A DNA stretch of 64,000 nucleotides from an uncultured Clostridia bacterium (GTDB taxonomy: Bacteria > Bacillota > Clostridia > TANB77 > CAG-508), in assembly GCA_934169775.1 (NCBI GenBank), contig CAKPOI010000001.1, forward strand, positions 16,558 through 80,557, written 5' to 3'. A model generated the notes under the pieces. That model searched no databases. It was not told the origin of the DNA and saw only the letters and a program-made list of their open reading frames with translations. This document shows positions 5,586 through 57,047 of this stretch, piece by piece (positions within the stretch are counted from its first letter, which is position 1; each line of letters begins with the position of its first letter). Made by a program: the position numbers and the translations under genes.

Positions 5586-6815
5586 TTATTTATAAAATGT
5601 ACTTCTGAAGCTAACATTGTTGTAGTTGTGTTTCGTATCATAATTTGAGCGACTAGCGGCTGAAAAACTAGAACCTGTATCATAATAACTGCCTCCTCTA
5701 ATAACACAGCTCTTATCATTGCTAGAATTAGCATATTCTAACGTCCATTCCCATTCATTTCCTGCTAAATCATATATATTCATTTTATTGGTTTCTTCTG
5801 ATGCTCCTGCTGATAATATAATATTACTTGCAGCTTTTGTTCCTGTTATTACTTCCCAAGTTTTGCCAGTATCTGTTGAATGTTTTGCATTTACACTTGA
5901 TATTGTCCTTGTTGTATTACTATAATTTCCCCAACTTGTACTATTGGAATTTATTTCGCCTATTGTTCCTCCACTTTTTATTTCTAAGAATTTGCATACT
6001 ATATCCCATTGAATTCCAAACATTAAACTACTTGTATAATCATTACTTGGTTTCATCTCTTTTGCTAATGCTTGTGCTTCACTACATAATAACCAGTTAT
6101 ATGGTATTGCATCTTTTTGACTTATTGCTTTTGGTGATATTCCAATTACTACATTTGAATGTGATGTTCTAGTTTTTGATGTATCTGTTGTACTTCCTTC
6201 TATTCCTGCTTCATATCTTGCAACCCAAAATCCTCCATAATTATATACACTTTTTAACATTTTTTGATATGCTTCTGTATATTCTTCTGAAGTCATTCCA
6301 CAGCCTTCGTACCATTCATCTTGCCAATTTAATCCTTGACCTGCTTTTCCTTCTCTATACGTTGTTGCATATGCTATTAATTTTTCTTTTATTGCTATAT
6401 AAATTTCAGTTGACATATTATTTGTATCAATTGTAAGTCCTGAAAACACTGTTGTTTTTGGTACTTCTACCCATACCCATTCATTATTATTTTTGTCTTT
6501 TATTACTATTCCTTTATTTGCATCTGATTCTATTACTGTTGAACCAGAAGGCATTGCTCCTGCTGGGTTTGTATTTGATAAATTTATATTATTAAAATTT
6601 GTTGCATTATTTAAAGCGTCTTCCATGTTTGACAATGTTTGTTCTTCTTCTTTTTGTGCTTGGCTAGTCTTTTCTTTTGCTTCTTTTGCTCTTGTTAATA
6701 TTCCATTGTCTCCACTTAAAGCCGCTATTGTCACTCCTGCTAGTATTAGAAGTACGATAGTTGTTATTACTAATGCTATTAATGTTATACCTTTATTTCT
6801 TATTTTGCTTTCCAT
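5586..6815 (-). CDS. Pilin-like N-terminal anchor plus FGE-sulfatase/C-type-lectin-fold domain protein. Paralog of the DGR target at 57048..58361; its C-terminal VR-like region has diverged from the TR.
   Basis: N-terminus KGITLIALVITTIVLLILAGVTIAALSG. C-terminal FGE/SUMF1-type motifs (GFWVARYEAG, AGNEWEWT, RGGSYY). About 75% identity to the 57048..58361 protein. Confidence 0.7.
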   Translation of the reverse strand: MESKIRNKGITLIALVITTIVLLILAGVTIAALSGDNGILTRAKEAKEKTSQAQKEEEQTLSNMEDALNNATNFNNINLSNTNPAGAMPSGSTVIESDANKGIVIKDKNNNEWVWVEVPKTTVFSGLTIDTNNMSTEIYIAIKEKLIAYATTYREGKAGQGLNWQDEWYEGCGMTSEEYTEAYQKMLKSVYNYGGFWVARYEAGIEGSTTDTSKTRTSHSNVVIGISPKAISQKDAIPYNWLLCSEAQALAKEMKPSNDYTSSLMFGIQWDIVCKFLEIKSGGTIGEINSNSTSWGNYSNTTRTISSVNAKHSTDTGKTWEVITGTKAASNIILSAGASEETNKMNIYDLAGNEWEWTLEYANSSNDKSCVIRGGSYYDTGSSFSAASRSNYDTKHNYNNVSFRSTFYK

Positions 6816-52950: not shown

Positions 52951-54627
52951 TTATATTAATTGCATTTTTACTTCTTTTCCTTTAAATGCAAATACCATTT
53001 TTGTTATGTTTGTATATCCTTTTTCTTGTAGATCTTCTTCATATTTTCTTTCTTCTATTTGCTTTTTGGCATTTTCTATTGTGTCTTCTATATCTTTTTC
53101 TCTGTCCTCTTTGTATACTTTAAATTCCATTATAAAGCTGTTTCCGTTTTTGTCTTTTGGTTCTAACATTATATCGTATCTTCCATATCCTGATTCTCTA
53201 TTGGATTTTACATAGTAGCTGTCTTTTAAGCCTACTAACATTCCTAATACAAATGCATGGTAAAAGTTTTCTGCTGTGTTTTCGCCTACATCCATATAAC
53301 TGAACATTTGAGTTACTAGTACCTTGAATTTTGTTTCAAATTCATCTAAATTTAATGTTATTAAGTCTTTTAATATTGTATTTAAATTGTTTCCTATTAC
53401 TTTATCATTAAACCATTCTCTTATTATGGTTTGAAATAAGAATTTTATTTCATAATTTGGTATTTTTACTTTGTATATTCCTGTTGCTAAATCTACTACT
53501 TCTGTTACTTTTAAATATCCTGTTCCTAATAATAGTCCCCAGATATTTTCTTCGTTTTGCTCTATTCCTACTATTACTGTGTCTAAATTTATTGGTACTT
53601 CTATTTCTTCATCTCGTAATAATTGCTCTATTTTTTCTTTTACTGTTACACTATTTTTTAGTATTAATTTTATTAAGTCATTTGAACTTGTGTTTACCCA
53701 ATATGGCATTAATTTTCTGTCTGTTAAATAGTTTAATATGCTCCATGGATTATATATTCCTTCTGTGTTTCCTATTGTGTATCCATCATACCACTTTTTA
53801 ATTTCGTCTTTTTCGTCTTGTATTTCAAAATCTTGTATAATTTTATCCATTTCTTTTTCTGTTATTCCAAAGTCATCACTGAATTCGTCATCTAATACTG
53901 TATATACTTTAAAGTTATTTGCTCCACTAAATATGCTTTCTTTTGCTACTCTTGATACTCCTGTTAATACTGTTTTTTCTAAATATGGATTGTCCTTAAA
54001 TGTCGTTCCATAAAATATTTTGAAAAATGATATTCCTTTTTCATAATAACTATTTACATATGCTGTTTGTAAAGGTACATCATATTCATCTAAAAATAAC
54101 ATTACTGGTTTATCATAATAGCGTGATAAATATTCGCTCAAATCTTTTACACTATTTTTTAAGGTTACTTCATCTTCTCTAAAATATAATATATCATTTA
54201 TTTTTTCTTTTTCAAATGGATATATCTTATCACTATCTAACAAGTACATATGTTCTTTATATGTATTTAACATTGCTGTTTTCATATTTAGTATCATGTT
54301 TTCATATGTGCTTTCGTTTACATCTTTTAATGTTATGTATATACATGGATAATATCCTAGCTTTGATGTGTATTTTTCATCTTGTTCCATTATTTTTAGG
54401 CCTTCAAATATTTCTTTACTGTCTTTTTTTGTACAGTCAAAATAGTATTTTAACATACTCATGTTTAGCGTTTTTCCGAATCTTCTTGGTCTTGTTACTA
54501 ATATTACTGATGCCTCATTGTCTATTATATCTTTTATATACATGGTTTTGTCTATATAATAGTTTTTTCTTATTCTTAATGCTTTAAAATCACTTTGCCC
54601 TATTCCTATTCCATACATATACCTCAC
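52951..54627 (-). CDS. AAA-ATPase-like / PD-(D/E)XK nuclease family protein (DUF1703-type), 558 aa. Intact copy of the remnant at 15179..15775.
   Basis: N-terminal YGIGIGQSDFKALR...VTRPRRFGKTLNMSML (AAA-ATPase-like). C-terminal nuclease-like region (FDIM...EFKV). Confidence 0.65.
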   Translation of the reverse strand: MRYMYGIGIGQSDFKALRIRKNYYIDKTMYIKDIIDNEASVILVTRPRRFGKTLNMSMLKYYFDCTKKDSKEIFEGLKIMEQDEKYTSKLGYYPCIYITLKDVNESTYENMILNMKTAMLNTYKEHMYLLDSDKIYPFEKEKINDILYFREDEVTLKNSVKDLSEYLSRYYDKPVMLFLDEYDVPLQTAYVNSYYEKGISFFKIFYGTTFKDNPYLEKTVLTGVSRVAKESIFSGANNFKVYTVLDDEFSDDFGITEKEMDKIIQDFEIQDEKDEIKKWYDGYTIGNTEGIYNPWSILNYLTDRKLMPYWVNTSSNDLIKLILKNSVTVKEKIEQLLRDEEIEVPINLDTVIVGIEQNEENIWGLLLGTGYLKVTEVVDLATGIYKVKIPNYEIKFLFQTIIREWFNDKVIGNNLNTILKDLITLNLDEFETKFKVLVTQMFSYMDVGENTAENFYHAFVLGMLVGLKDSYYVKSNRESGYGRYDIMLEPKDKNGNSFIMEFKVYKEDREKDIEDTIENAKKQIEERKYEEDLQEKGYTNITKMVFAFKGKEVKMQLI

Positions 54628-54727: not shown

Positions 54728-54976
54728 TTATTTGCTTTTTACTAGCTCTTTTATAACTATTTGTTTTTCTTCTATTCTTCCTTCTATCCATATTATATCT
54801 TCTTTTTTTAATTTTCTATAGCATTTGTCTGCTATCTCGTTATATCCTATTACTTTTATTTTTGATTTGTTATCTAATTCTATTTCAAATATTATTACTG
54901 CATCTGCATTTCTTATAAATGTAAATTTATATTCTGGTTCTGTTATTATTTTTCCTTTTATAAAACATATATTCAT
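54728..54976 (-). CDS. Hypothetical small protein (82 aa), possibly an OB-fold.
   Basis: ORF only. Confidence 0.3.
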   Translation of the reverse strand: MNICFIKGKIITEPEYKFTFIRNADAVIIFEIELDNKSKIKVIGYNEIADKCYRKLKKEDIIWIEGRIEEKQIVIKELVKSK

Positions 54977-55181
54977 TTCTTTTTCCTTTTTTTATTTACT
55001 TGCGTAAAATAAATACATTCAATTTCTTTACTAATATTTATTTTACTGATTCTTTTTTACCTATTCTTATTATTTTTTCTATTTTTATATATTTAATAAT
55101 TTCGGAAGGAATAAATCTCTTTAATACTAATACCTTTACTGTATATATTCCGTAAAATATATAATCTGAAATTTGTATTAG

Positions 55182-55315
55182 AGTGCTGGACGGAAACTAA
55201 TATTGTTGTTGCTGTTAGTCGTGCTATTGTTATTACGGTTAGAGGCTGGATTATTAGAGCCTGTATTGTTGTAATTGCCTCCCCTGTTGGCACAAGGATT
55301 GCTACTGTTGGAAGT
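55182..55315 (-). other. DGR template repeat (TR), 134 bp, located 68 bp downstream of the RT gene.
   Basis: 134-bp homology to 57061-57194 (VR). All 16 differences lie at TR adenines (sense strand). The TR is rich in AAC/AAT codons. Homology ends at ...AGTGCTGG. Confidence 0.85.
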
Positions 55316-55383
55316 TTTCGATTTATCCCTAATTTTCTTTTTTTGTTTATATTGTAATATTAAATTAAGTTATTTTATATTTT

Positions 55384-56169
55384 TTATTCTATGTAAAATA
55401 ATTTGTTTGTTAAATTGTATACATTTGCTATTTGTATATATCCCATATGTCCTGCTAAATATTTTTTTGCTTCTTGTTTTGTTTTTACAAATATTATGCT
55501 GTCGTCCAAATATCTTTTATAATATTTTATTTTTAACTTATGCTTTATGTATTGGTCTACTTCATTTAAATATATGTTTGCAAACATTTGTGATGTGTAA
55601 TTTCCTATTTCTAATCCTTTTGGTCTTTTCTGTGCATATATTATTTCTTCTAATAACCATATTACATCTTTGTCTTTTATTTTTCTTTTTAATATTTTTA
55701 GTAATGTTTGTTTGTCTATATTATCAAAATATTTTGATATATCCATTTTTAGTATATAATATTCTCCCCATTTAGCTTTACAGTGTTTCATTGTTTTTTG
55801 TGTGTCTAAACATGCTTTATGCATTCCTCTGTTTTTTATACATGCATATGTGGTTTTTATAAATTGTGGTACATATGCTGGTTCTAAAAATTTGTCTACT
55901 ACCCATCTGTGTACTATTCTGTCTATATATCTTGATTTTTCTATTTTTCTTACTTTTGGTTCTGTTACATAAAATTCTGTATATCCTCCATGCCTGTATG
56001 TTTTGGTTTTTAGTTTTTCTAATAGCCACATTATATATTCTTCTTGTTTTAAATTAAATTCTATTATTTCTTTTCTATAGCCTTTTCCTTTTTGTGATTC
56101 TTTATGTGCAAGCATTAGTTTTTCGTATGTTAGGTTTTCTTCATATTTGTTTCGTATCGTTTTTGGCAT
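55384..56169 (-). CDS. Diversity-generating retroelement reverse transcriptase (261 aa; short, thumb region reduced).
   Basis: RT motifs 1-5 with the DGR-specific IGNYTSQ motif 4 ([I/L/V]GxxxSQ instead of QGxxxSP) and a YLDD catalytic box. The N-terminus aligns with Bordetella bRT-like RTs. Confidence 0.8.
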   Translation of the reverse strand: MPKTIRNKYEENLTYEKLMLAHKESQKGKGYRKEIIEFNLKQEEYIMWLLEKLKTKTYRHGGYTEFYVTEPKVRKIEKSRYIDRIVHRWVVDKFLEPAYVPQFIKTTYACIKNRGMHKACLDTQKTMKHCKAKWGEYYILKMDISKYFDNIDKQTLLKILKRKIKDKDVIWLLEEIIYAQKRPKGLEIGNYTSQMFANIYLNEVDQYIKHKLKIKYYKRYLDDSIIFVKTKQEAKKYLAGHMGYIQIANVYNLTNKLFYIE

Positions 56170-56530
56170 AGTATTTTATTAGTCCTCCTAATATTTTTCC
56201 TATTTCATATATTTGCTCCATTGCTATTCTGAATTTCTTTTCATCTATCCATTGGTTCTTTTTCATTATTCTTAAATAAATTCTTTGTGTATTTAGTTCT
56301 GCATCTATATGGTTTAATGTTTCTATTATTTGACTTTTTTCTCCTTTACCTATTTTGTTTATATACATTATTTTTCTTATCATTTGATACATACTTTGTT
56401 TATATTCGTTTCCTATACTAAATTTTTCTATTCTTGGAAGTTTTATTATTACCTGTAATATGTATTCTATATATTTTTCTGCCTTTGGTATTAATTGTAG
56501 TTTATTTTCTTTTTCACTCTTTTTATCCAT
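56141..56530 (-). CDS. avd: Avd-like accessory variability determinant (129-aa basic helical-bundle protein); overlaps the RT start.
   Basis: Size, basic helical character, and its position immediately upstream of and overlapping the DGR RT. Confidence 0.55.
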   Translation of the reverse strand: MDKKSEKENKLQLIPKAEKYIEYILQVIIKLPRIEKFSIGNEYKQSMYQMIRKIMYINKIGKGEKSQIIETLNHIDAELNTQRIYLRIMKKNQWIDEKKFRIAMEQIYEIGKILGGLIKYYAKNDTKQI

Positions 56531-56779
56531 TTAATCGTTTTCCTTTTTATTGCTTCTATATTCTTTTTCTTCTAATTTTTTCATATATGTTTCTATTGAA
56601 TTTACTGGTATTCCTATTTTACATACTTCTGGTTCCATGCATAATAACTTTAACCCTAATATTTCGTTTAATTTTACTGCGTCTTTTCCTCTCGCTAAAT
56701 AAAATGCTCCTGCATTTGTCAATATTATGTATCCTTTATTTTTTTCTTGTAATAATTCTAACATTTTACTAAATCCCAT
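56531..56779 (-). CDS. Small protein resembling MutS mismatch-binding domain I (82 aa); first gene of the avd-RT operon.
   Basis: AGAFYLARGKDAVKLNEILGLKL...IGIPVNSIETYMKKL aligns with MutS domain I ([23 protein letters not shown]...AGIPYHAVENYLAKL). The mismatch-contacting Glu is replaced by Leu. Confidence 0.35.
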   Translation of the reverse strand: MGFSKMLELLQEKNKGYIILTNAGAFYLARGKDAVKLNEILGLKLLCMEPEVCKIGIPVNSIETYMKKLEEKEYRSNKKEND

Positions 56780-56843
56780 TTTCTACCTCCTGCTTTGTTT
56801 TATTTTTAAAGCTGGCGCGGTTCGTTTTTTTGCCTGAAAGCTC

Positions 56844-56880
56844 AAAAAAAACGCTACCGCCAGGTAGCGCTACCTCCAGG
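56844..56880 (-). terminator. Rho-independent terminator about 170 bp downstream of the DGR target gene.
   Basis: Minus strand reads CGCTACC-TGGC-GGTAGCG followed by T8. Confidence 0.55.
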
Positions 56881-57047
56881 TGAAAAATTGTATTTCTGGA
56901 TTTACCAAGAACAAGTTCTTGATAAATTCTGTCCTTCAATTTTCCACCTGCCTCTAGCGTATTTCATTCGCTAGAGGGTACTTATTATTCAATTTACCGG
57001 CTATAAAATGGCTCTCTCGCCTATTTTATAATCACGGGCTTTAGCTT

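What the first reader, a model, noticed from the sequence alone, without database searches (positions are those of the whole stretch)
56531..56779. MutS-domain-I-like small ORF as first gene of the avd-RT operon
An 82-aa ORF directly abuts avd (stop and start are adjacent) and aligns with the mismatch-binding domain I of MutS (AGAFYLARGKDAVKLNEILGLKL / IGIPVNSIETYMKKL against [23 protein letters not shown] / AGIPYHAVENYLAKL). It lacks the catalytic Phe-x-Glu glutamate. A mismatch-recognition-like module encoded inside a DGR, whose cDNA-target heteroduplex contains A:N mismatches, could be a previously undescribed accessory factor. It might instead be an unrelated small protein.
Basis: inference. 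Interest (0 to 1): 0.6.

Follow-up and report, generated by a model that had tools for sequence, protein, structure and literature searches.

The report
Truncated MutS-like (MSL) DGR accessory gene
The small gene is a real relative of the mismatch-binding domain of MutS inside a diversity-generating retroelement, but this accessory gene class (MSL) was described in 2018, and the copy here is a half-length deletion remnant in an element whose reverse transcriptase is also broken.

Summary
An 82-aa ORF at 56531..56779 (-) abuts avd and matches Pfam MutS_I above the curated cut-off (E 2.9e-7). It keeps the Phe but lacks the Glu of the Phe-x-Glu motif. It lies in a genuine DGR: 17 of 18 TR/VR mismatches fall at TR adenines.

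MutS-like (MSL) proteins are a published DGR accessory class (Wu et al. 2018; Bacteroides Msl, 2024 preprint). They are not a previously undescribed factor.

Intact relatives number 593 homologs, all from uncultured gut Clostridia, and are 140-170 aa. They have a confirmed MutS-domain-I fold, an invariant Phe, never the Glu, and a conserved four-Cys motif. In 65 of 75 genomes they sit directly upstream of avd and RT; the other ten are deletion remnants.

The window copy matches only residues 1-74. A deletion of about 209 nt removed two core strands, the CxxC motif and the tail. A second deletion of about 214 nt removed RT motif 7 and about 77 residues around it. The same doubly deleted allele occurs in at least five independent metagenome assemblies. 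It is most likely a non-functional relic.

One side finding is less ordinary: a mini-SSB (OB-fold) gene is strictly linked to these cassettes, and I found no description of it.

The parts
56531..56779 (-). Truncated MSL (MutS-like) ORF, 82 aa. Residues 1-74 (56558..56779) are homologous to the MSL family. The last 8 codons and the stop are created by the deletion.
   Evidence: ORF list. Pfam MutS_I E 2.9e-7, above the gathering score. Homolog alignment A1. tblastn with P0017 residues 1-74 maps to 56779..56558.
56549..56558 (-). Deletion junction in the MSL 3' part. The window lacks L001 1313-1521 (about 209 nt) and L002 480-663. The flanking short repeat in the intact relatives is AGAAAGAATA.
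   Evidence: blastn of the window against L001 and L002. Junction sequences.
56141..56530 (-). avd, 129 aa, apparently intact
   Evidence: Pfam bAvd PF22296 E 2.9e-19, profile positions 5-106 of 107. Same length as in L001.
55384..56169 (-). DGR reverse transcriptase with an in-frame internal deletion: 261 aa against 338 aa in L001. The stretch after YLDD, including the FCGY motif, is missing.
   Evidence: Pfam RVT_1 E 1.6e-13, ending at profile position 170 of 205. L001 RT is 338 aa. tblastn covers L001 RT residues 1-250 and 305-336 only.
55465..55475 (-). RT deletion junction. An 11-nt overlap marks microhomology between the repeats AAAGAAGCAAAA (KEAKEAL / KEAKKYL). The window lacks L001 2606-2819.
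55179..55318 (-). Template repeat (TR)
   Evidence: 140-nt direct repeat, 87% identical to the VR. 17 of 18 mismatches are at TR adenines.
57058..57197 (-). Variable repeat (VR) at the 3' end of the target gene
57048..58361 (-). DGR target gene, 437 aa. It has a pilin-like N-terminal hydrophobic segment and a weak FGE-sulfatase-type match at the C-terminus that carries the VR.
56780..57047 (-). Structured spacer between the target stop and the MSL start. It contains a conserved hairpin and a terminator-like hairpin at 56871->56850.
   Evidence: RNA fold z-score -7.57. Terminator scan. Covariation in 26 loci.
55004..55183 (-). RT-14 RNA motif (Rfam RF02921), starting at the 3' end of the TR
   Evidence: 79.4 bits against a gathering score of 48.1, full-length model match
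54728..54976 (-). Mini-SSB (OB-fold) ORF, 82 aa, the last gene of the conserved cassette
   Evidence: Sub-threshold Pfam SSB and OB hits. AF2 pLDDT 88.4. Top 50 Foldseek PDB hits are all bacterial SSBs, TMq 0.75-0.90. Linkage to the DGR.

Best explanation
The ORF is a deletion-truncated allele of an MSL (MutS-like) accessory gene. It belongs to a chromosomal DGR of an uncultured gut Clostridium.

Shown: the cassette order is pilin-like target (VR), structured spacer with terminator, MSL, avd, RT, TR, RT-14 RNA, mini-SSB. Intact MSL proteins of this clade are 140-170 aa. They consist of a stand-alone MutS domain I fold, with an invariant Phe at the mismatch-wedge position and never the Glu. They also carry a conserved Cx5C...CxxC motif and a basic helical tail.

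Inferred mechanism for the intact family: MSL binds the densely mismatched cDNA:VR heteroduplex formed during mutagenic retrohoming. It has no Glu, no connector, no clamp and no ATPase domain, so it cannot license repair. It would therefore act as a shield or decoy that keeps host MutS/MutL from restoring the parental VR.

Shown for the window copy: a deletion of about 209 nt between short repeats removed residues 75 to about 150. This takes out two core beta strands, the CxxC half of the Cys motif and the tail. A second deletion of about 214 nt removed RT motif 7 and about 77 residues around it.

Inferred for the window copy: the 82-aa product and the element as a whole are most likely inactive relics of a formerly active DGR.
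For: - DGR identity: TR/VR are 140 nt, with 17 of 18 mismatches at TR adenines. avd and RT are present.
- MutS_I homology: Pfam. Full-length members also pass the gathering score.
- Fold: AF2 model of P0017 has pLDDT 80-95 over residues 1-100. Strands 76-82 and 87-94 lie beyond the window's homologous part. The top 50 Foldseek PDB hits are all MutS or MSH domain I.
- Family features: 593 homologs, typically 140-170 aa, nearly all with PF01624. Phe is invariant. The Glu position is I113/L8/V5/N2. Cx5CK is present in 127 of 128 and tail CxxC in 126 of 128.
- Linkage: 65 of 75 loci have avd/RT directly downstream, and 48 of 52 have a target-like gene upstream.
- Truncation: the alignment diverges after Y74. 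The closest species representative, L002, has an intact 152-aa MSL with NCYIC. blastn shows both deletions and their microhomology.
- The allele is real: identical 82-aa MSL and 261-aa RT occur in at least five independent ENA assemblies. The VR is identical in four of them, while 1-50 substitutions occur elsewhere.
- Literature: the MSL class is defined in PMC5758913. Deleting host mutS raises Bacteroides DGR output 5-10 fold. MMR is suppressed to make engineered DGRs work.
Against: - No experiment on any MSL protein was found, so the shield/decoy mechanism is pure inference.
- The truncated ORF keeps a strong Shine-Dalgarno sequence, an intact frame, the Phe-bearing hairpin and two helices. 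It persists unchanged in several samples, so residual function cannot be excluded.
- VR invariance is not diagnostic. A lineage with an intact-looking cassette (L089-L091) also shows identical VRs in three assemblies.
- RT inactivity is inferred from the missing motifs and was not measured.
- The family is more basic (pI 9.2 +/- 0.4) than the MSL set of Wu et al. (7.2 +/- 1.7). I could not compare sequences with their 16 MSLs because their supplement is not held.
- A profile of the family finds no PDB sequence at E <= 0.01. The MutS link therefore rests on the Pfam HMM and the fold.
Confidence: 0.85

Rival explanations
1. The 82-aa product is a functional minimal MSL. The N-terminal beta-hairpin with the Phe wedge and the two helices would be enough to bind DNA or to partner with Avd. 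The short form would then be a selected variant rather than a relic.
For: The ORF is intact, has a strong ribosome-binding site and is translationally coupled to avd. The identical allele is present in at least five assemblies. Several other short forms (87-116 aa) are abundant among close relatives; P0006, for example, has 142 member sequences.
Against: It lacks two core strands of the domain I sheet, half of the conserved four-Cys motif and the tail. The short forms end at different points and some carry frameshifted tails, which is the pattern of decay. The same cassette has an RT missing about 77 residues. 54 of 79 species representatives keep the full length.
Confidence: 0.08
2. Intact MSL is not an anti-repair shield. 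It is instead a structure-specific DNA or RNA:DNA-binding subunit of the Avd-RT ribonucleoprotein that helps target-site recognition or cDNA integration.
For: MSL always occurs with avd and is encoded directly before it, often with overlapping stop and start. The family is basic (pI about 9.2) and has a probable zinc site and a helical tail that are absent from MutS. The cassette has conserved hairpins next to the VR.
Against: Nothing tested here separates this from the shield model. The invariant Phe at the wedge position argues for a MutS-like mode of DNA contact. Most DGRs work without MSL, so it is not a core integration factor.
Confidence: 0.3
3. The similarity to MutS is a chance match, and the ORF is an unrelated small protein or a non-coding stretch.
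For: Direct sequence similarity to solved MutS chains is weak (E 0.075). The family profile finds no PDB sequence.
Against: The Pfam hit is above the curated cut-off for the window ORF and for full-length relatives. The fold search is unanimous. The protein is conserved in 593 homologs.
Confidence: 0.01

Closest known systems
MSL (MutS-like) DGR accessory proteins, Architecture D of Wu et al. 2018 (PMC5758913)
   Same: A small stand-alone protein with MutS homology. It is encoded inside a DGR cassette, always with avd, and there is no HRDC gene here. The gene order MSL-avd-RT fits the described class.
   Different: The window copy is 82 aa, outside the published 112-283 aa range, because it is truncated. 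The clade is more basic (pI about 9.2 against 7.2 +/- 1.7). The four-Cys motif and the systematic Phe-yes/Glu-no pattern are not mentioned in the passages I could read. Sequence identity to the published 16 MSLs could not be tested.
Msl of Bacteroides DGRs (Bfr, Bth, Bun; bioRxiv 10.1101/2024.11.15.621889)
   Same: [quoted passage not shown] It occurs in gut bacteria whose DGRs diversify pilus-type surface proteins.
   Different: Different phylum. The target here is a Gram-positive pilin-like protein with a weak FGE-sulfatase-type match at its C-terminus. No direct sequence comparison was possible.
MutS domain I (PF01624) of canonical MutS/MSH proteins
   Same: Same fold. Pfam match. The Phe is conserved at the mismatch-stacking position, and the surrounding G-x-F-Y ... 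G-K/D-D-A motif is shared. Compare Bergeyella MutS 'VGDFYEAFGKDA' in L081.
   Different: Stand-alone, with no connector, lever, clamp or ATPase domains. The Glu of Phe-x-Glu is replaced by I, L, V or N in all members. There is an extra Cys4 motif and a basic helical tail. Crystal entries of E. coli MutS E38A/Q/T mutants bound to a G.T mismatch appear among the fold hits. From established knowledge, these mutants still bind mismatches but are repair-defective.

Membership tests
MSL DGR accessory gene class (Wu et al. 2018) | Encoded within a DGR cassette (RT, TR/VR with adenine-specific differences) | tested here: met
   The ORF lies between the target gene and avd-RT. 17 of 18 TR/VR mismatches are at TR adenines.
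MSL DGR accessory gene class (Wu et al. 2018) | Detectable homology to MutS | tested here: met
   Pfam MutS_I E 2.9e-7, above the gathering score. The fold of a full-length relative matches MutS domain I.
MSL DGR accessory gene class (Wu et al. 2018) | Co-occurs with avd and not with HRDC | tested here: met
   avd is directly downstream. The cassette ORFs give no HRDC hit. avd follows MSL in 59 of 75 related loci.
MSL DGR accessory gene class (Wu et al. 2018) | Size 112-283 aa | tested here: not met
   The window ORF is 82 aa because of a deletion of about 209 nt. Intact relatives are 140-170 aa and fit the range.
MSL DGR accessory gene class (Wu et al. 2018) | Near-neutral charge (pI 7.2 +/- 1.7) | tested here: inconclusive
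   The window ORF has pI 8.5. The family mean is 9.18 +/- 0.37, at or above the upper edge of the published range.
MSL DGR accessory gene class (Wu et al. 2018) | Sequence relatedness to the 16 published MSL proteins | not testable with these tools
   The supplementary data of PMC5758913 are not held.
MutS domain I (PF01624) | Match to the Pfam model above the gathering score | tested here: met
   31.1 bits against 20.6
MutS domain I (PF01624) | Complete domain I fold (mixed sheet with all strands) | tested here: not met
   The full-length relative has the fold. The window ORF ends at residue 74 of the homologous part, before strands 76-82 and 87-94 of the model.
MutS domain I (PF01624) | Phe-x-Glu mismatch-recognition motif | tested here: not met
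   Phe is present (F26) and the Glu position is Leu. The family has I, L, V or N there in 128 of 128 members.
Canonical MutS mismatch-repair protein | Multi-domain architecture with an ABC ATPase | tested here: not met
   The protein is stand-alone, 82 aa here and 140-170 aa in the family. For contrast, the ordinary 867-aa MutS is seen in L081.
Functional DGR | Complete RT (motifs 1-7 and thumb) | tested here: not met
   261 aa against 338 aa. L001 RT residues of about 251-304, including the FCGY motif, are absent.

The most novel reading that the evidence does not exclude
The intact family behind this relic may be a zinc-stabilised, stand-alone MutS domain I. It keeps the Phe wedge but has lost the repair-licensing Glu. 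It would bind the A:N-mismatched retrohoming heteroduplex and block host MutS. It would act together with a dedicated mini-SSB that is strictly linked to the same cassettes and that I could not find described. Under this reading, this Clostridial DGR type carries its own anti-mismatch-repair and cDNA-handling module.
Probability: 0.3. Interest if true: 0.65.

Novelty: new member of a known kind. Interest (0 to 1): 0.25.

Why it matters
As stated, the finding re-discovers a published DGR accessory class, and in a broken copy, so on its own it adds little.

The family-level details may still be useful to people trying to explain how DGR-made mismatches escape repair. That question is now experimentally live: deleting host mutS raises Bacteroides DGR output 5-10 fold, and engineered DGRs need MMR suppression. 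No function has been shown for MSL. The details are:
- Phe is always kept and Glu never.
- There is a conserved four-Cys motif.
- MSL is strictly linked to avd-RT in 65 of 75 genomes.

The linked mini-SSB gene, the RT-14 RNA and the conserved hairpins next to the VR define a compact seven-part cassette that could be reconstituted. The many independent deletion alleles give natural loss-of-function controls.

Tried and rejected
1. Chance similarity was rejected by the Pfam, homolog and fold evidence.
2. Sequence searches against solved structures gave little. The single sequence found Taq MutS only at E 0.075. The family profile found nothing at E <= 0.01.
3. Phage or prophage origin was not supported. 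There was no tblastn match in 50,697 phage records and no relative in IMG/VR.
4. I looked for a link to Bacteroidota MSL through L081, but that locus is simply an ordinary 867-aa MutS.
5. I used VR invariance among assemblies as a test of inactivity. The VR is identical in 4 of 4 assemblies with the deleted allele. The control lineage with an intact-looking cassette also has identical VRs, so the test does not discriminate. That control is itself imperfect, because an IS element sits between the target and MSL.
6. I searched for a promoter for the MSL-avd-RT unit. Promoter-like sites are not more frequent than in shuffles, and none lies between the terminator and MSL.
7. The supplement of Wu et al. 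is not held, so I could not check whether these Clostridial loci are among their 16 MSL DGRs.
8. The paralogous target-like gene at 5586..6815 was tested as a second VR. Its 3' end is about 61% identical to the TR, with mismatches at all four bases, so it is not a current target.
9. I did not model the 82-aa ORF itself. A confident model would not tell whether the fragment is stable.

Full report
**1. What is at the coordinates**

The minus strand carries an 82-aa ORF at 56531..56779. It starts with ATG and cannot be extended upstream. An AGGAGG ribosome-binding site lies 6 nt before the start. The TAA stop is immediately followed by the ATG of the next gene.

The next gene (56141..56530, 129 aa) is an Avd (Pfam bAvd, E 2.9e-19). 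It is followed by a reverse transcriptase (55384..56169; RVT_1, E 1.6e-13).

A 140-nt direct repeat links 55179-55318, just downstream of the RT, with 57058-57197 at the 3' end of the upstream 437-aa gene. Read on the coding strand, 17 of the 18 differences lie at adenines of the RT-proximal copy. This is the signature of a DGR template repeat and variable repeat.

**2. The MutS similarity**

- The ORF matches Pfam MutS_I (PF01624) at E 2.9e-7 and 31.1 bits, above the curated cut-off of 20.6. The match covers residues 10-75 and profile positions 10-79 of 113.
- A direct search of PDB sequences returns only Taq MutS, weakly (E 0.075).
- F26 aligns with the mismatch-stacking Phe, and the Glu two residues later is Leu.
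- A profile built from full-length relatives finds 593 homologs. They are typically 140-170 aa and nearly all are pre-annotated with PF01624. One source calls its member 'MutS domain I protein'.
- An AlphaFold2 model of a full-length member (P0017, 143 aa) is confident over residues 1-100.
- In a Foldseek search of the PDB, its 50 best matches are all MutS, MSH2, MSH3 or MSH6 chains aligned over domain I (probability 1.00, 90-110 columns, rmsd 2-3 A).

One wording point: the Glu is not catalytic. From established knowledge, it hydrogen-bonds the mismatched base and couples recognition to repair.

**3. Association with DGRs**

A scan of one genome per species (GTDB) with the family's conserved peptides returned 80 loci. 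All but one are from uncultured gut Clostridia MAGs. The closest, L002 (MGYG-HGUT-03977), is 96% identical. The exception (L081) is an ordinary 867-aa MutS.

I scored stop-to-stop ORFs of these loci with phmmer:
- 65 of 75 evaluable loci have avd and/or the RT directly downstream of the MSL gene.
- 48 of 52 have a target-like gene upstream.
- The ten exceptions are remnants: MSL fragments fused to downstream genes, or MSL fragments next to a target gene. One case has an insertion of about 2 kb.

The subfamily has no relatives in phage records or in IMG/VR contigs. It is a chromosomal system.

**4. It is not new**

Wu et al. 2018 (PMC5758913) defined MSL, 'MutS-like', as one of two new DGR accessory genes. 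They found it in 16 of 372 DGRs. The proteins are 112-283 aa, always accompanied by avd, never found with HRDC, and form 'Architecture D'.

A 2023 survey lists MSL with the Pfam attribution PF01624 as a known DGR accessory protein (PMC10053308). [quoted passage not shown] It also shows that deleting host mutS raises VR mutagenesis 5-10 fold. A 2026 preprint cites the MutS-like homologs as the reason for suppressing mismatch repair in engineered DGRs.

I found no experiment on an MSL protein itself.

**5. This copy is a remnant**

In the alignment with homologs, the window protein follows the family only to Y74. It then ends with eight unrelated residues, where the others continue with YSYIVY..., a second strand, an NCxxC motif and a helical tail.

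In the P0017 model the missing part includes strands 76-82 and 87-94 of the central sheet.

At the DNA level, the window lacks L001 1313-1521 (about 209 nt) and L002 480-663. The short repeat AGAAAGAATA sits at the two edges in the intact relatives. L002 encodes an intact 152-aa MSL with NCYIC.

A second deletion removes L001 2606-2819. It lies between the repeats AAAGAAGCAAAA, and the junction has an 11-nt overlap. The RT is 261 aa instead of 338 aa and lacks the stretch that holds the FCGY motif and the following basic segment. From established knowledge of group-II-intron-like RTs, these are motifs 6-7 and much of the thumb.

The doubly deleted allele is not an artefact of this window. The identical 82-aa and 261-aa proteins are encoded together in at least five independent metagenome assemblies.

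In the four assemblies that cover it, the VR is identical to the window's, while 1 to 50 substitutions have accumulated elsewhere in the aligned 2-3 kb. This fits an inactive element but is not proof. A lineage with an intact-looking cassette also shows identical VRs in three assemblies.

The lineage was active in the past. The VRs of the window and of L001 differ at 46 positions, 35 of them at TR adenines.

Decay of this kind is common. Only 54 of 79 species representatives have an intact-looking MSL. The rest are truncated, frameshifted or fused in frame to RT, avd or the downstream gene.

**6. Family features and likely mechanism**

Among 128 full-length members:
- the Phe is invariant;
- the Glu position is Ile (113), Leu (8), Val (5) or Asn (2), never Glu;
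- a Cx5CK hairpin is present in 127;
- a tail CxxC is present in 126.

The last two together suggest a four-Cys metal site that MutS lacks. This is inference; I could not measure distances in the model. The proteins are basic (pI 9.18 +/- 0.37).

A domain that keeps the DNA-inserting Phe cannot signal repair if it has lost the Glu and all the machinery for ATP-driven clamp formation. Entries of E. coli MutS E38A/Q/T mutants bound to a G.T mismatch are among the fold hits. From established knowledge, such mutants bind mismatches but are repair-deficient.

The most economical model is therefore that intact MSL occupies the mismatches of the cDNA:VR heteroduplex and keeps host MutS away. This agrees with the measured negative effect of host MutS on DGR output. 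I rate this at roughly 0.3-0.4 against the alternative that MSL is a structure-specific subunit of the Avd-RT particle.

For the window copy I commit to 'non-functional relic' with high confidence.

**7. Surroundings**

- The 268-nt spacer between the target stop and MSL folds far better than shuffles (z -7.57).
- Twenty-six loci share a hairpin with compensatory changes (5-9 double changes at several pairs) and a terminator-like hairpin followed by a T run.
- MSL-avd-RT is therefore separated from the target gene by a terminator. No convincing promoter was found.
- The TR runs into an Rfam RT-14 RNA match (79.4 bits).
- Next comes an 82-aa ORF (54728..54976). It is conserved as a protein, models confidently (pLDDT 88.4) and matches only bacterial SSB OB-folds in the PDB (top 50 hits, TMq 0.75-0.90).
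- This ORF follows the TR in 48 of 64 evaluable genome loci.
- Searching from its side in metagenomes, 16 of 24 evaluable loci have the RT within 900 nt upstream. The other eight are target-plus-remnant loci.
- Three full-text searches found no description of an SSB or OB-fold DGR accessory gene. The library lacks most subscription journals.

**8. Verdict**

The specific ORF is a truncated allele in a decayed DGR. Interest in the finding as given is low. The mini-SSB linkage and the family-level sequence rules are the parts worth passing on.

Noticed in passing
window 54728..54976 (-): An 82-aa mini-SSB (OB-fold) gene follows the TR and the RT-14 RNA. AF2 gives pLDDT 88.4, and the top 50 PDB fold hits are all bacterial SSBs. 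It is strictly linked to these DGR cassettes or their remnants: 48 of 64 genome loci, and 16 of 24 metagenome loci with the RT upstream, the rest being remnants. No description of it as a DGR accessory gene was found in the held literature.
   Followed up: yes
window 55384..56169 (-), junction 55465-55475: The DGR RT carries an in-frame internal deletion of about 214 nt (261 aa against 338 aa). It lies between the short repeats AAAGAAGCAAAA and removes the FCGY motif region.
   Followed up: yes
window 55004..55183 (-): An Rfam RT-14 RNA (RF02921) starts at the 3' end of the TR. It scores 79.4 bits against a gathering score of 48.1 and matches the full model. It is presumably the structured RNA 3' of the template.
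   Followed up: partly
window 56780..57047 (-): The spacer between the VR/target stop and MSL is highly structured (MFE z-score -7.57). It includes a hairpin (about 56948-56975) with compensatory changes across 26 loci. It also has a conserved terminator-like hairpin at 56871->56850, followed by a second T-run/A-run hairpin. Spacer length is conserved at about 220-290 nt.
   Followed up: partly
related loci L008, L010, L013, L025, L041, L046, L049, L056, L057, L059, L069, L097-L099; proteins P0040, P0041: Internal deletions of the cassette recur and create in-frame fusion ORFs: MSL-RT, MSL-SSB, avd-MSL and avd-SSB. P0040, an MSL(1-35)-SSB fusion, is seen on 25 contigs. About 30% of species representatives have a damaged MSL.
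   Followed up: partly
full-length MSL family (A2, P0048-P0162): A four-Cys motif is conserved: Cx5CK in the beta-hairpin (127 of 128) plus CxxC in the tail (126 of 128). Canonical MutS domain I lacks it. It is probably a zinc site. The window copy keeps only the first two Cys.
   Followed up: partly
window 5586..6815 (-): A 409-aa paralog of the DGR target, 64% identical over the C-terminal 236 aa and with the same pilin-like N-terminus. It has no adjacent DGR parts. Its 3' end is only about 61% identical to the TR, with mismatches at all bases, so it is not a current target.
   Followed up: partly
window 57048..58361 (-), N-terminus: The target protein begins with a type IV pilin-like N-terminal segment (KGITLIALVITIIVLLILAGV; Pfam N_methyl E 0.023, below threshold). 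The DGR seems to diversify a pilin-like surface protein.
   Followed up: no
window 52951..54627 (-) against L082 3397-4596: The genes downstream of the cassette differ between carriers of the identical deleted allele. The window has an AAA-ATPase/PD-(D/E)XK (PDDEXK_9) gene, while L082 has infC-rpmI-rplT. This points to an insertion or rearrangement next to the cassette.
   Followed up: no
L089-L091, 1728-3223: In a very widespread lineage (MSL P0089, listed in 727 index blocks), an IS element (DDE_Tnp_1) is inserted between the VR end and MSL. Its inverted repeats start directly after the VR.
   Followed up: no
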